A stretch of 64,000 nucleotides of DNA, taken from contig NC_087251.1 of NCBI RefSeq assembly GCF_037042905.1, forward strand, positions 17,050,001-17,114,000, written 5' to 3'. The position numbers are program-made. Positions within the stretch are counted from its first letter, which is position 1. Every line of letters begins with the position of its first letter. Below, piece after piece: positions 25,901 through 34,900 of this stretch. The DNA comes from Lytechinus pictus (Eukaryota).

Positions 25901-28900
25901 TCATAAAGTTATGATAAAAATGTTTCTTATGTAATGTAACATAACATAATTATAATATAATATAACATTACATAATGAATAATATTTTCTTCTTTCCCAC
26001 TACGTTTCTCTTCCTTTCTCCCTCATTTCTCCTTTTCCCCCTTTCCCCGTTTTTTTTTTGGTCAGCCGATGGGGGGGGGGTGTGCCCCCCATGCCCACCG
26101 TAGTTACGCCACTGTATATGGCAAATACCCCTCCAATATTTTTTTTTTTTTTTACCCCATGATGGTTTAATGGTTTTATTAGAGATTACATTCAAATTTT
26201 TTTGACATTCCATCTTATTCCCTTCCCAAAGACCCCAACATTGATGAATTGGAAGAAACGGGGGTTTCTCTTCAATGTTATAATACGGACATAAGTATTT
26301 CGTTTGGAAATGGTGAACTGGCTCTTTATTTGCATTTTATGATTCAATAATATTGTTTTATTTGTTAAGCGGTATTTTAGGAAGAATTTTCACCAATAAA
26401 ACAATTATCTCTTGCGATTTTTTTTTCATTTCTTTCGTAAAAAGTGGGGGGATGTTTGTACAGACCACCCCCCCCCCCCCTCCTCGAAAAGTGGGGGGAT
26501 ATATCCCTCCATCCCCCCCCCCCCCGGGGATTTACGCCAGTGGAGTAGATAATTGAGAAAAGCTAATTATGCTCGATATATCTCATCTTTCTCTTGAGCT
26601 TCATCCCCTAATACTTTAGAATCAACATTATATTGAAATCAAATAACATCTCCTACTAAGGTTAAGATCAATTATTTACACAGCTAGCTATGAATACTAA
26701 GTAATTGACATTTTGGTATATTACCAACTACTAGTATGCTAACATAACTCCGTCTGCTGGTATTTCGTCAATGAACTGTTCATCAAGTGACCAAAATATG
26801 GGTAAGTAATATTATCATGTTGAACTCAGTTTCGCCCAATAACTACTATGTGTATAACCATTTCGTCCAAACAGTCCTAATTGCACAAATGAATCCAAAA
26901 TCATAGACGGAACGGCACGATGGAAAAAGAGTGAGCATTGAGTGGATAATGACTATTGTACGACTTGTAAAACTATTGGATTGGATGGCCTAGGGTTATT
27001 CAACTTTATCATATGGAATTCATAATCGTTAGACAATGTTTCTAGAAACCAATTCGACCTCTTCCTTCCTCACTTTCTCTATATCCAGCACAATCTCTTT
27101 AATATTTAGCTCTCTCTCCTCCTCCTCCTTATCTCTCTCACACACTCTCACTCTGTCACTCTTTGTATCTTAACAAGTATGGTTGTGACTAGACTTGGAC
27201 TATATCTTAAACGTTATAGAATGCACACATACAAAAGCATAATATTTCTAAGTTGTATGTTCAAATTCAATTCTTTGCGAGAATCAAGTGAAAATTAAAC
27301 TTATATGTTGTTCTAAAACAGATTGATGCTTATTAACAGTCATCTCCAGTGTATTTTAGGCCGAAACACACAATGTCAATCACAATAGATTTACATTAAA
27401 AAACGGGGCCTTATTTTAAAGGAGACAAAAATATTCTATATTGACTTGACTTAATGCCGTCACCTTCGAGCTGCTCTTCATAAACCCTCGATGTACCTAT
27501 AATCTAATCACAGTATGATAGGTCCTTCATATGCAACACAATCCGATAGTCATTACCCATAGTGTGAAAACAGTCTGGGCTGTAGCTCGATATTGGGTAT
27601 CTGATTCAGACGATGGAGAGAGAGAATCATTTTATTATATTCACATTAACTTTTCAAGTGTTCGGTTGTCAAATGAGATTTGGTAGCAGCAGAGATTAGA
27701 ATTCGTTTATTTTATTAAGTGTTATCTAAAGTAGATGTAGAAATAGGAAAGATATTGCTTTCATCGTTTTGGGATAAGACATTGATATGTATGTCGATGT
27801 ATGTATTAATTAATATCATACACTCCTATACAGTATGTTATTATTGCATTGTTATATTAATAGCTCATATTTTGTAAATCGGTCGCCCTTAGTAAAATTA
27901 TATTTTACTTTTTGGCTGCCACCACTCAGTATTTCAGGCGTATACATCGATGTGTAATACATGTATTTTAACTTTGCATCATGTTTCTTATGTATGGTTT
28001 ACTAAGAAAATAAAACATTTTGAATTTAAATATACATAACATATGCGATATTAATATTAGTAATCCGGTTATGTCACCCCTCCCCCCCCCCCCCCACACG
28101 CGCACACATACTATTACGTATCATTGATACTTGGGAATATGTCATACATTTGAAGGCAAGTGAATGCAGCAAAAAGAAGAAGCAAGTGCTTGCTCGTATT
28201 TTGGTCCCTATCTCTGTACATAAGTTTCATTTTTTGGAGTGGGGTTGAACTTTTCACGAAGAGGTACCAACAATATCCAGGTGTAGTGATTTGTTTGTCT
28301 TTGATAGAGCCAGTTTTGGATATGATCTCTGCGACTTCACAGGCTGATCGTTTGGCTTATCGGGGTCGGGCAGGATCTGGGAAGTTAACGTACGTAGTGG
28401 AGTCCGAAACGTTGTAACCCATGCTCATTATGTCAACTCAAGTTAAAATATCTTTGAAACCTTAATCTCTGATATATTTCATATATGTGTATCTGAATTT
28501 CATTTTCATATAGTAGAATATCTTCAGTTCACCATATCTAGCAAAGTATTATCTCAGATAGTACATTTACACATATTGAAGCTTTGGGGGAATTTGTGCT
28601 TATAGAACAGGGAGGGTGCTGAGAAACAAGTGAAAACTTAATCTTGGTTTGTTTCTAATGACTTCTCAATAAACTACATGTATAATTTTATAATTAAAAT
28701 CAATTACATACTTTCGTCTTGTAATTATTTTGTGCGTTTGTATATACTGTATTTTAAGTACAGATATTTTGAATGAGAAAATTGTTTCTGATTGATTATA
28801 CTATACATTTGCACATGTGCCGGAATCGGACATGCCGGACTCGGTCTTGGACTGACTGGATTCGGACACATAACTGTGTCGTTGTTGTATTTTTTTGTCA

Positions 28901-31900: not shown

Positions 31901-34900
31901 CTATAAAATAAGATATTTTTAGATGTTCTCTCTATGTATGAATTATTGGAAATGTTAATCCTACCGTTACACACAGGACAAGAATTACTTCAGTCACCTT
32001 GCTATGTATCGTTGTTTAGTTTCTTTAATGGAATTTGAACATTTTATAACTACGTTTCTTTGATCTCGTAAAAATCATTTAGTATAATAACATTGCGCGT
32101 CACATACCCGTCTACGATGAAATCATAACGAATGTCATCTTCGTATTGGGACATGGGTGTTGCCCGGCACGATCGAATGCTCAGATCAAGAGTTCCTTCG
32201 AGTGACGTCACTGATGCAGCGAAGTAGAGGTCCTCGTTGAGTCCAATCACCAGAGGATATCGTTCAACCACTTCATTGTAAGAATCATCGGTGTAGAGTT
32301 CGAAAGAGAAAGAATATTCTCCTTTCTCCTCGAGAGTCTTGTCGATGGTGTAGTCGCTCAACTGGTAGCGTACGGATTCCACGCGTTTGCTTCGGTTGTA
32401 CGAACACGTCAACGGTATATCGACGGCATACAGACGGCTGATGATCCCGTCTTCGTAACGGCTGACCACTTGATTCGTGTAAGTTTCTTCGGATGCAGAT
32501 TCCTGGAATAAAAAAAGTTACCAAGAAATGTTGGTTATTGTCTACATATAGAAATTAGATAGAAACAGAGGAAGACACAATATTTTTGACGTGCATATTA
32601 TCTAATGATTACTTGATTTCACTCCTGGACACGGTGTTTTAGGTTTTGATGGCATATCTCTTTCTCCTTACCCTTCATGGCCAGATACCAAAGAATGTGC
32701 CCCACACTGCATGATAATCTGATTATTTTAAATAGTTCCCGCAAAATGTAATGACCAACATAACTTCGATGATCGAACCGAATCAAACTAAATCAACCGG
32801 GTATTCTTCGGCATTGGTGGACCTGTCACGGCTCATACCATAAAGATCTTCAAAGCAATTAGAGGCTAATGGACGTGTATGTTCATAATTCCTTAAGCAA
32901 AAAAAAAGTAATTAAAAGAATGATCATTACCGATACTGATGTCCCACAACCTGTAAGGTTGGTAGTGAGTTCAATGATGTCCATGTTGAATTCATTGACT
33001 TCATCGATTCCCCAGCAGTCCTCATCGTCTTCAGACGCCAAAGCAAAACGAACATCGGTACCAACCATGCCACCAGTTAGGAGAGTCTTGGGAATCTCTA
33101 CGATCATCTGAGTGTCCGTACAGGTCAGGATGATTCCTTCGGTGTCAAGCTCTGAAACCGTCATGGTATGAACAGTTCATCAATAAGATTGAAATATCAA
33201 GATATCTTACACAGTAATAAGTAAATAAGCTATGGAAGTTTGCCCTTTAAAAGTACCATAGGTTGTATCACACACTCCCGTCCAACTATACCGTTTGCAC
33301 TAATCTAACATTTTCTCCACACTGTGTTTGCGGCAGGAACTCTCATGACCAAGCACGTATTGTATTTGAAGGGCAATATTTGAAATTCTTTACCATTTTT
33401 TAGCGAGTATCTTGAATAAAGTGGATTTATTGTATTGGTATATTCCCTGTTAGTCAGGGATAATTCGTTATGAGGCCTTCTATTGTTTTCGATTATGGCA
33501 ACTATTCCGATGACACTGTATCCTCATACAGCTCGTCGCAGTAGTAGGTGACGACGTCGCTGGTTTTCACCGCGCGATGGCGGTGGTTTACCTGGTGCAT
33601 TGATGCCATTCACTGGCGAGGAATTGATTATTCATCAAATTATTATATGTGTGTAATTCAATGTCTGTCGGGGCATATGTCATTCGGATTTCTACTCGAT
33701 GGTTTGTAGGGAGCAGGAACTGATCATGGAAGGCACTTACTTAGGACTGGGATGTTCTCGATAAATTTCAGGTTGTTTGGACACAGAATTACTAGTAAGT
33801 TCACGGTTTATGATAAGTACAAAACAGATTATTACATGCCCACTAAGTCAAAATATGACCATGCAATAACGTGAAGTAAAAGTTCCAAAATTTAGGTACA
33901 GAATTTTGAACCACATTCTACAAAGAATTAATATACGTCCTAGTCACCGATATTGAAAAAAATATCAAAAGCCAAGTCCAAGAAAATTACCATTGGCCGG
34001 TGTAGCGTCTTGTTCATCTTGAATAAAGCCATTGTTGGATATGATCTCTGCAAAAACACTAGATGATTGTTTGGCTTCTCGAGGTCGAGCTGGATCTGAG
34101 AAGTTTACGTAATGGAGTCCGAAACGTTCGCTGTAACCAGAAGCCCACTCGAAGTTATCCAGAAGTGACCACGCTGTATAGCCTTTGACGTCAACGCCGT
34201 CCATATTGATAGCTGGAATGGGAGAGGGAGATAGAGCGATGAAAAACTGTATAATGACGTGTTCAATATTCAAGAACAATATTTTCAGGGTGTTTGGGGT
34301 AGGCCCTGTATTATATTGAATTCTAAACGTAATATGCCTATAAGATATTGTTGTGTTTATTACCCTTTAGAAGTTCATTGATGTAAGCTGTGTAATAGTT
34401 TTGTCTGATTTCGTCATCAAGTTCGTAGATGTCAGATGTGGAAACGCCATTCTCCGTCACGTAGATGGGTACTCCATACTCTTCATAGATCCAGTTCACA
34501 AGATTGCGAAGGCCCCATGGAACAATCTTCAACCAGCTAGATCCAGAACCAGGCCAACTTTGATCCTGGTATGAACCCACATCTGAATCGGTCCAGTAGC
34601 TGGGAGGGTTGGAAAGGTATTCTGGGACAGCGAATGCATAGTTAGAAGTATAATGATTCAAACCAAAGAAGTCACTGGTTCCTATAATCCTTTCTATCTC
34701 TTCTGCTGTGAATTCAGGCAGTCGAGATTCGTTGAATCCTTGGGCAGCGCTCTTCTTGGCGATTTTGGTCTTCATGATCTCAGGGTAGTCACCTTTGAAG
34801 ACTGGATGAGCAAACCAACCGAGGTTGAACTGAAGGGCTCTATCAGATGCATCCAGACTGGTCTGGTTCGTCCTGTCCAGTGGTTCTGACCAATCAGAGT

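What the first reader, a model, noticed from the sequence alone, without database searches (positions are those of the whole stretch)
27527..34212. ZP cassette is a symmetric phase 1-1 module, and a ZP-less relic copy sits right behind it
Seen: the introns on both sides of the ZP exons (after 33991 and after 30945) are phase 1, so skipping exons 5-8 joins GH1 directly to the TM exon in frame. Downstream on the same strand, a decayed GH1-3-type exon 4 (28277-28420) is followed only ~680 bp later by a paralog of the anchor exon (27527-27600), with no ZP sequence between. Known: 1-1 symmetric modules are the classic substrate of exon shuffling in extracellular proteins. Inference: the relic records either the pre-insertion state (GH1-anchor) or a duplicate that lost ZP. 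A ZP-skipped isoform is also possible.
Basis: partly seen in the sequence, partly recalled or inferred. Interest (0 to 1): 0.65.

Follow-up and report, generated by a model that had tools for sequence, protein, structure and literature searches.

The report
Sea-urchin glycosidase–ZP fusion with relic
A sea-urchin sugar-splitting enzyme gene gained the whole tail end of a zona-pellucida-type matrix gene, and a small dead copy of two of its exons lies just behind it; this is tidy gene-fusion evolution, not a snapshot of the gene before the fusion.

Summary
The four ZP exons (33151..30945, minus strand) are flanked by phase-1 introns and total 933 nt, so skipping them stays in frame. All 13 exon pieces match the RefSeq Lytechinus pictus protein XP_054758788.2 exactly. 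A decayed copy of the last GH1 exon lies at 28428..28269. It is 78-82% identical to the third GH1 unit and has a stop and two indels. A weaker but significant copy of the anchor exon's acceptor and start lies at 27627..27548, perhaps reaching 27522 (51/80 identical; 0 of 150 shuffles reach its score). No ZP remnant lies between them.

The anchor exon is homologous to the TM and tail of small stand-alone echinoid ZP proteins, as are the ZP exons. ZP and anchor therefore arrived together as one 3'-terminal block. GH1 relatives without ZP end in GPI-like tails instead. The fusion is shared with L. variegatus and S. purpuratus. The relic is therefore most likely a post-fusion partial duplicate that lacks ZP, not the pre-insertion state. 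How ZP went missing is unresolved. No evidence exists for a ZP-skipped isoform. Interest is low to moderate.

The parts
33991..34212 (-). Ends with a phase-1 donor.
   Evidence: Pfam GH1 at 2e-21; borders and phase; exact match to the RefSeq protein.
32931..33151 (-). ZP exon 1 (ZP-N). Enters in phase 1 and leaves in phase 0.
   Evidence: Pfam ZP-N, 25.3 bits against a 24.7 cut-off; 46-69% identity to 10 echinoid ZP proteins, mostly starting at query residue 1.
32108..32502 (-). ZP exon 2 (end of ZP-N, linker and start of ZP-C).
   Evidence: Pfam ZP-C at 6e-14; 54-70% identity to stand-alone ZP proteins.
31743..31845 (-). ZP exon 3 (ZP-C, middle part).
   Evidence: 52-76% identity to ZP proteins; borders; exact match in the RefSeq protein.
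30945..31158 (-). ZP exon 4: end of ZP-C with four Cys, an RRRR cleavage-type site and a following hydrophobic patch. Leaves in phase 1.
   Evidence: Translation; 48-57% identity to ZP proteins.
30427..30626 (-). Anchor exon: TM helix, 28-residue cytoplasmic tail and stop codon. Part of the ZP-gene-derived block.
   Evidence: Kyte-Doolittle mean 2.51 over 19 aa; 51-59% identity to the C-termini of P0002-P0011.
28269..28428 (-). Relic pseudo-exon: the 3' two-thirds of the last GH1 exon of unit C, with a -4 deletion, a +4 insertion and an in-frame TAA.
   Evidence: Substitutions are spread 10/46, 6/46 and 12/46 over codon positions.
27628..28268 (-). Spacer between the two relic patches. No ZP sequence, and no detectable homology to intron 4, intron 8 or the ZP interval of the live gene.
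   Evidence: 155/200, 169/200 and 55/60 shuffles reach the observed scores..
27522..27627 (-). Relic of the anchor exon: 27 nt of acceptor region plus the first 53 nt of the exon (27627..27548, firm). A possible continuation runs to about 27522 after a 24-nt gap (marginal).
   Evidence: for the firm part. for the continuation (9 of 200 shuffles reach the score).
30427..43207 (-). The whole gene as in RefSeq XP_054758788.2 (1380 aa): signal peptide, GH1 (unit D), GH1 (unit C), ZP module and TM.
   Evidence: 13 of 13 exon pieces exact; Pfam GH1 x2, ZP-N 1014-1113 and ZP-C 1137-1263.

Best explanation
The live gene is a fusion. A two-domain GH1 (lactase-like beta-glycosidase) gene lost its own GPI-type tail. 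Its last GH1 exon now splices, through a phase-1 donor, onto the complete post-signal-peptide part of a small echinoid ZP gene: ZP-N, ZP-C, a furin-type site, a hydrophobic patch, a TM helix and a short tail. The predicted product is a type-I membrane precursor in which two catalytically intact GH1 domains sit on a cleavable ZP polymerisation module. This function is inferred from the domains and was not tested. The 1-1 symmetry of the four ZP exons is real. It exists because the donor ZP gene already had a phase-1 intron before its TM exon. It is not evidence that ZP moved alone.

The relic, 2 kb downstream of the stop codon, is a dead DNA-level partial duplicate of the already fused gene. 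It keeps part of the last GH1 exon and the acceptor and start of the TM exon. The ZP-bearing interval between them was deleted or replaced by unrelated sequence.

Shown: the homologies, the phases, the disabling mutations and the sharing of the fusion across three species.
Inferred: the order of events and the deletion.
For: - Exons 5-9 are collinear with stand-alone ZP proteins, and that includes the TM and tail.
- Homology to ex5 starts at query residue 1 in 8 of the 10 non-self proteins. The same ZP-TM block sits behind a NIDO domain or Ser/Thr-rich regions in P0008, P0010 and P0011.
- ZP-less GH1 relatives end in GPI-like tails within the last GH1 exon. This is seen in units B and E and in P0187, P0189, P0201 and P0207.
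- Diadema P0201 is D-like plus B/C-like with such a tail (tree).
- The same GH1-GH1-ZP-TM protein, with the same junctions, is annotated in S. purpuratus, L. variegatus and L. pictus. The first two lineages split about 30-50 My ago (passages read in PMC12521550; about 45 My in PMC11586663).
- The relic groups with unit C at 98/98. The C branch is 0.019 and the relic branch 0.19.
- Third-position difference is only 12/46, and substitutions are spread evenly over codon positions. This pattern fits neutral decay of a fairly young copy.
- The start of the relic anchor shares 7 of 15 residues with ex9 but 2 of 15 with the stand-alone P0004. I counted these by reading.
- The relic retains 19/27 of the intronic acceptor region, so it was copied from DNA and not from spliced RNA.
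- In the exon-4 overlap the relic shares the Lytechinus-specific Ala (S. purpuratus and 4 of 5 outgroup sequences have Ser). It keeps the ancestral Lys and Thr where both Lytechinus species have Gln and Ala. This comes from reading, and it places the duplication on the Lytechinus stem.
Against: - The spacer shows no homology to intron 4 or intron 8. Yet at the divergence seen at third positions (about 26% difference), neutral intron sequence should still align. A 74%-identical repeat elsewhere in the window was found easily.
- The inner edges of the two patches lie about 3 nt past the donor and 27 nt before the acceptor. That is an unlikely outcome for one random deletion, so 'one duplication plus one deletion' is incomplete.
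- The timing rests on 1 shared-derived site against 2 ancestral sites, and on 46 third positions.
- No DNA from other urchins could be compared.
- BLAST-type searches do not detect the anchor relic.
- Intron positions in the stand-alone ZP genes were not seen.
Confidence: 0.55

Rival explanations
1. A patchy copy that never held ZP. The two relic patches were copied from the fused gene as short separate pieces, by template switching during repair or replication or by capture in a mobile element. They were set down 640 nt apart, and ZP exons were never part of the copy.
For: Only about 160 nt and about 80-105 nt are homologous. Everything around and between them is unrelated to the live gene. 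Both outer edges fall inside exons. Divergence is low enough that copied introns should still be visible.
Against: No terminal repeats or target-site duplication were found at the patch or spacer edges. No second copy of the spacer exists in the window. The patches keep the order, strand and splice-site ends of the parent, which a single duplication also explains.
Confidence: 0.25
2. The relic preserves the state before insertion: GH1 followed by an intron and its own anchor exon, into which the ZP cassette was later shuffled as a 1-1 module.
For: The cassette is symmetric 1-1 and 933 nt long. The relic has exactly the GH1-anchor order with no ZP.
Against: The anchor exon is homologous to the C-termini of ZP proteins. 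ZP-less GH1 relatives use a different, GPI-like tail inside the last GH1 exon. The search with ex9 found no GH1-TM protein without ZP; it returned 1 hit among 56 candidates, which was the fusion itself. The fusion predates the Lytechinus-Strongylocentrotus split, while the relic is a close sister of unit C. The spacer is not homologous to introns 4 and 8, which this model also requires.
Confidence: 0.05
3. Only the exon-4 fragment is a real relic, and the 'anchor paralog' is a chance match of a pyrimidine tract plus AT-rich sequence.
For: tblastn gives E 5.9, ranking ninth among chance-level hits. blastn gives no hit. Identity is only 64%.
Against: Score 117 against a maximum of 92 in 150 shuffles, and against 74 for the best unrelated site in about 128,000 diagonals. 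It is the top of 295 real acceptor-like sites. It lies on the same strand, in the right order, in register with the acceptor, and within 700 nt of the exon-4 relic.
Confidence: 0.05
4. The relic is a retrocopy of a ZP-skipped or aberrantly spliced transcript, truncated at its 5' end.
For: The 5' truncation falls inside exon 4. The exon order equals that of the in-frame skipped isoform.
Against: A 640-nt spacer lies between the patches. The donor GT and 19/27 of the intronic acceptor region are retained. The sequence read shows no A-run downstream. The rest of exon 9 and the 3'UTR are absent or marginal.
Confidence: 0.03
5. The anchor relic is a live alternative terminal exon. Spliced from exon 4 or exon 8 (both phase 1), it would add 24 codons ending in an 11-residue hydrophobic stretch, giving a GPI-signal-like end.
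For: The acceptor is intact, and the open frame in the right phase ends in a hydrophobic stretch (KD 2.34 over 11 aa).
Against: An open frame of 24 codons is expected by chance. The site lies 2.8 kb beyond the stop codon. The neighbouring exon-4 copy is clearly dead. No such protein appears among the 19 cluster members.
Confidence: 0.03

Closest known systems
Mosaic ZP-module proteins (uromodulin, GP2, DMBT1, CUZD1, tectorin type): N-terminal modules followed by ZP-N/ZP-C, a cleavage site and a TM or GPI anchor
   Same: A C-terminal ZP module, a basic cleavage-type site and a TM anchor, with variable domains added in front. Close echinoid paralogs carry the same ZP-TM block alone or behind NIDO or Ser/Thr-rich regions.
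   Different: The partner here is a pair of enzyme domains. None of the 49 long ZP relatives scanned has GH1; their partners are CUB, SRCR, Sushi, C-type lectin, MAM, EGF, D8C, cadherin, FN3 and SEA. The family names in this row's title are recalled, not tested.
Lactase-phlorizin hydrolase-like GH1 proteins of deuterostomes and molluscs (multi-domain, membrane-anchored)
   Same: Tandem GH1 domains with NEP and ENG catalytic motifs and a signal peptide. RefSeq uses this name for the gene.
   Different: The other urchin, holothurian, crinoid and hemichordate members read end in short hydrophobic GPI-like tails or have no tail. Only the P0001 cluster carries ZP, 1 of the 120 hits listed.
Exon shuffling of symmetric phase 1-1 modules (Patthy's rule; established knowledge, recalled)
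   Same: Phase-1 borders on both sides of an autonomous extracellular module whose length is a multiple of three.
   Different: Homology shows that the transferred unit runs to the stop codon. It is a 3'-terminal 'phase 1 to end' block, and only its 5' border acted as a shuffling junction.
Non-processed (duplicative) pseudogene fragments next to their parent gene
   Same: Tandem position on the same strand, retained splice-site sequence, a stop codon and frameshifts, and even substitution over codon positions.
   Different: Only two short patches survive, and the sequence between them is unrelated to the parent's introns.

Membership tests
ZP-module protein | ZP-N and ZP-C domains above Pfam gathering scores | tested here: met
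   On P0275, ZP-N scores 40.0 bits (cut-off 24.7) and ZP-C 95.8 bits (cut-off 24.6). Single exons score 25.3 and 52.8 bits.
ZP-module protein | Conserved cysteine set of the module | tested here: met
   Ten Cys were counted in the translations of ex5-ex8 (3 + 2 + 1 + 4). That ten is typical of one ZP type is recalled.
ZP-module protein | Basic cleavage site after ZP-C, followed by a hydrophobic patch and a TM or GPI anchor | tested here: met
   RRRR lies in ex8 and is followed by a conserved hydrophobic stretch. The TM helix has a KD mean of 2.51 over 19 aa. Cleavage itself was not tested.
ZP-module protein | Polymerises into extracellular filaments | not testable with these tools
   Needs expression and microscopy.
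GH1 beta-glycosidase | Pfam PF00232 over the full domain, present twice | tested here: met
   1152 bits in two stretches on P0275. Single exons score 2e-21 to 2e-70.
GH1 beta-glycosidase | Acid/base (NEP) and nucleophile (ENG) glutamates | tested here: met
   TFNEPW and TENG motifs were read in both domains. The role of these motifs is recalled. Enzyme activity was not tested.
Symmetric 1-1 shuffled module | Both flanking introns phase 1 and length divisible by 3 | tested here: met
   The split codons 1004 and 1315 are confirmed.
Symmetric 1-1 shuffled module | The module moved as that unit (homology to the donor ends at both borders) | tested here: not met
   Homology to stand-alone ZP proteins continues through exon 9 to the C-terminus.
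Symmetric 1-1 shuffled module | Same-phase introns at the same borders in donor or paralogous genes | not testable with these tools
   No eukaryotic genome collection was available. Single-exon ORF fragments from related urchins show only that the ex5 end and the ex6 start are conserved.
Non-processed pseudogene fragment | Disabling mutations and a neutral substitution pattern | tested here: met
   TAA, a -4 deletion and a +4 insertion. Substitutions are 10/46, 6/46 and 12/46 by codon position.
Non-processed pseudogene fragment | Retains intronic or splice-site sequence of the parent | tested here: met
   19/27 in the acceptor region, the top of 295 sites. The rest of the introns is not retained.
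Processed retrocopy | Exons joined without an intron, with a poly(A) tract | tested here: not met
   A 640-nt spacer and the acceptor region are present. No A-run was read downstream.

The most novel reading that the evidence does not exclude
The relic is the footprint of a once-expressed ZP-less version of the gene: GH1 anchored directly by the ZP-type TM exon. The inner edges of the two patches sit at the splice sites because that exon pair was spliced and under selection for a time. Together with the in-frame 1-1 cassette, this would mean that Lytechinus can switch, or once could, a digestive-type glycosidase between a filament-forming ZP form and a plainly membrane-anchored form.
Probability: 0.1. 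Interest if true: 0.5.

Novelty: new member of a known kind. Interest (0 to 1): 0.3.

Why it matters
This is a clean, datable case of domain accretion in an extracellular protein. Four states can all be read from sequence:
- the recipient type, a two-domain GH1 gene with a GPI-like tail, as in Diadema;
- the donor type, a small stand-alone ZP-TM gene;
- the product, shared by three urchin species;
- a later decayed partial copy.

An enzyme on a ZP polymerisation module is unusual. None of the 49 long ZP relatives scanned has GH1. No paper on such a fusion appeared in the listings.

For the scan, the lesson is methodological. Phase symmetry alone does not define the shuffled unit; homology to the donor does.

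The gene itself is already in RefSeq, and the relic is a small pseudogene fragment. The finding is a modest correction rather than a surprise.

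Tried and rejected
- Standard blastn (word 7, E<=1e-3) and tblastn do not find the anchor relic. I replaced them with a length-free ungapped scan and shuffles.
- My first local alignment, scored +2/-3, picked an AT-rich chance match instead.
- No homology was found between the relic's surroundings and intron 4, intron 8, the ZP interval, the 5' part of exon 4 or exon 3. The gap penalties were lenient, so those alignments are long but at chance level.
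- I looked for a vestige of an ancestral GPI-type tail in the first 91 nt of intron 4. Against the tails of units B and E, 417/500 and 426/500 shuffles reach the score. Rejected.
- I looked for terminal repeats or target-site duplications around the spacer and for tandem repeats. Nothing usable turned up.
- The search with exon 9 for GH1-TM proteins without ZP returned only the fusion cluster, 1 hit among 56 candidates. This is weak evidence, because short TM-rich queries share few words.
- The ten unnamed cluster fragments are single-exon genomic ORFs. They say nothing about isoforms.
- Ordering the duplication against speciation from amino-acid states gave only three usable sites.
- Literature searches listed no paper on a GH1-ZP fusion or on intron phases of ZP genes. 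I saw only the listings.

Full report
**What the window is.** The 64-kb window has no N and is about 36% G+C. It is not human. It holds five GH1 units:
- A, 10703-13835, plus strand
- B, 22771-19175, minus strand
- C, 39011-30427, minus strand
- D, 43207-40331, minus strand
- E, 50077-53747, plus strand

A thrombospondin C-terminal exon lies at the left end and a cytochrome P450 first exon at the right end. The five exon pieces of unit E translate exactly to a named Lytechinus pictus protein of 548 aa. The locus is therefore L. pictus or something indistinguishable from it. All searches with the spliced gene were done exon by exon. The joined model was not searched.

**The gene.** Units D and C are one gene in RefSeq.
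- All 13 exon pieces are exact substrings of XP_054758788.2 (1380 aa, 'lactase/phlorizin hydrolase-like'). They cover 1375 of 1380 residues, and the other five residues are split codons.
- Pfam finds GH1 twice, ZP-N at 1014-1113 and ZP-C at 1137-1263.
- A 19-residue window with Kyte-Doolittle mean 2.51 in the last exon marks a TM helix.
- Both GH1 domains keep the NEP and ENG motifs.

**Check of the observation.**
- Phases. With GT-AG borders, the introns after 33991 and after 30945 are both phase 1. The four ZP exons sum to 933 nt. The split codons are G|AG and G|AT, so skipping would read GAT in frame.
- Exon-4 relic. It is clear. It is 79.1% identical over 134 nt, E 1e-26. Alignment extends it to 28428..28269 and shows a 4-nt deletion, a 4-nt insertion and an in-frame TAA. 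It is 78-82% identical to unit C against 53-61% to A, B, D and E. It groups with C at 98/98 support, with a short C branch (0.019) and a long relic branch (0.19).
- Anchor relic. It is weak. tblastn gives E 5.9 and blastn gives no hit. An ungapped maximal-segment scan with no preset length gives 51/80 identities for 27627..27548 against 30653..30574, score 117. This is the best non-self hit on both strands. Unrelated sites reach at most 74, and none of 150 dinucleotide shuffles exceeds 92. The match crosses the acceptor. The 27 intronic bases match at 19/27, first among 295 pyrimidine-rich YAG sites, with the next at 16. A possible continuation to about 27522 after a 24-nt gap is marginal (9 of 200 shuffles reach the score).
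- No ZP between the patches. No ZP exon has a second copy anywhere in the window at E<0.4. The best hit inside the spacer has E 4.3. The spacer aligns to the whole ZP interval at chance level.

**What the ZP block is.** Exon 6 finds 13 proteins. Twelve are echinoid ZP proteins, 56-70% identical.
- Most of the twelve are about 400 aa and consist of a signal peptide, a ZP module and a TM region (Lytechinus, Strongylocentrotus, Diadema, Heliocidaris).
- Some have a NIDO domain or Ser/Thr-rich regions in front.
- The thirteenth, P0001, is the only one with GH1.

Compared exon by exon, these proteins match ex5 (46-69%), ex6 (54-70%), ex7 (52-76%) and ex8 (48-57%). They also match ex9, the TM and cytoplasmic tail, at 51-59% over 54-66 residues in 10 proteins. 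Homology starts at the first residue of ex5 in 8 of the 10 non-self proteins. In the stand-alone forms that point is the first residue after the signal peptide. The block transferred to the GH1 gene therefore runs from ex5 to the stop codon. The anchor exon belongs to it.

**What GH1 genes look like without ZP.**
- Units B and E end, inside their last GH1 exon, in a Ser/Thr-rich stretch and a short hydrophobic tail with no cytoplasmic part.
- The same holds for two-domain urchin proteins P0187 (L. pictus) and P0189, P0201 and P0207 (Diadema).
- In a tree of the exon-3 region, Diadema P0201 is D-like in its first domain (100/99). Its second domain sits beside unit B (85/75), next to the C clade (82/83). 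It is a reasonable picture of the pre-fusion gene, and it has no ex9-type exon.
- Of the 120 best relatives of exon 4 that were listed (203 had E<=0.001), only the P0001 cluster carries ZP.
- The search with ex9 found no GH1-TM protein without ZP.
- Of 143 library representatives related to exon 6, I scanned the 49 that are 600-1500 aa long, and none has GH1. I left out 88 proteins shorter than 600 aa and 6 longer than 1500 aa.

**Age.** The P0001 cluster holds the same GH1-GH1-ZP-TM protein from S. purpuratus (XP_030854714.1), L. variegatus (XP_041469143.1) and L. pictus. The junctions are the same in all three. Passages I read put the Lytechinus-Strongylocentrotus split at about 30-50 My (PMC12521550) or about 45 My (PMC11586663).

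The relic differs from unit C at 28 of 138 sites. Only 12 of 46 third positions differ, and the changes are spread evenly over codon positions. This pattern fits neutral decay of a fairly recent copy.

Reading together gives three informative sites:
- The relic shares one Lytechinus-specific residue, Ala, where S. purpuratus and most outgroup sequences have Ser.
- It keeps the ancestral Lys and Thr at two sites where both Lytechinus species have Gln and Ala.

That places the duplication on the Lytechinus stem, after the fusion. Three sites are thin support, and I had no DNA from other species.

**Conclusion on the relic.** It is a dead, DNA-level partial copy of the already fused gene. It is not the pre-insertion state.

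One thing remains unexplained. The 640-nt spacer shows no similarity to intron 4 or intron 8 (155/200 and 169/200 shuffles reach the observed scores). Yet a 74%-identical repeat elsewhere in the window was found at once. The inner edges of the two patches lie about 3 nt past the donor and 27 nt before the acceptor. One duplication followed by one random deletion does not predict this.

I therefore hold two versions:
- duplication followed by deletion or replacement of the ZP interval (0.55);
- a patchy copy that never contained ZP (0.25).

A retrocopy is unlikely because the acceptor region and donor are retained. Chance is unlikely given the controls.

**How it probably works (inferred).** The live protein is a secreted-pathway, membrane-anchored precursor. 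Cleavage at the RRRR site would free a ZP module able to polymerise, carrying two active-looking glycosidase domains into an apical matrix. A ZP-skipped isoform would be a plain type-I membrane glycosidase. It is possible by phase arithmetic only. None of the 19 cluster members is such a form, and no reads were available.

**Literature.** The listings showed no paper on a GH1-ZP fusion. One search showed none on ZP intron phases. I saw listings only, and supplements were closed.

Noticed in passing
window 38880-39011 and 40395-40430 (minus strand): Units D and C are spliced into one RefSeq protein, from a donor after ...NNGFK in D's last exon to an acceptor inside C's first exon. Just upstream of that acceptor, C still has an ATG and a signal-peptide-like open frame. 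This could be a vestige of a stand-alone gene or an alternative first exon giving a one-domain GH1-ZP form.
   Followed up: partly
window 29080-29898: A large palindrome lies between the gene's 3' end and the relic. Over about 830 nt the region matches its own reverse complement at 79%. It looks like a foldback or MITE-like element.
   Followed up: no
window 25145-26057 and 13929-14867 (both plus strand): A repeated segment, 74% identical over 651 nt with internal tandem structure at 25288-25683, lies downstream of unit A and again between unit B and the relic.
   Followed up: no
window 51964-52254 and 52579-52971 (plus strand): Unit E has an extra intron that splits the exon which is single in units A-D.
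   Followed up: partly
window 44523-45141: A tandem array of a 181-nt unit, 3.6 copies with 82% matches, lies between unit D and unit E.
   Followed up: no
window 15400-17100 and 45700-47700: Dense overlapping long open frames occur on both strands, with recurring peptide strings in the ORF list. This suggests dispersed or tandem repeats.
   Followed up: no
window 3-1484 (plus) and 61917-62402 (plus): Flanking genes: thrombospondin type-3 repeat and C-terminal-region exons on the left, and a cytochrome P450 first exon on the right.
   Followed up: partly
window 10703-13835 (plus strand): Unit A has no signal peptide and stops right after the GH1 domain. It is 96% identical in exon 3 to an L. 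variegatus protein of 495 aa, so it is a cytosolic-type member within the same cluster.
   Followed up: partly
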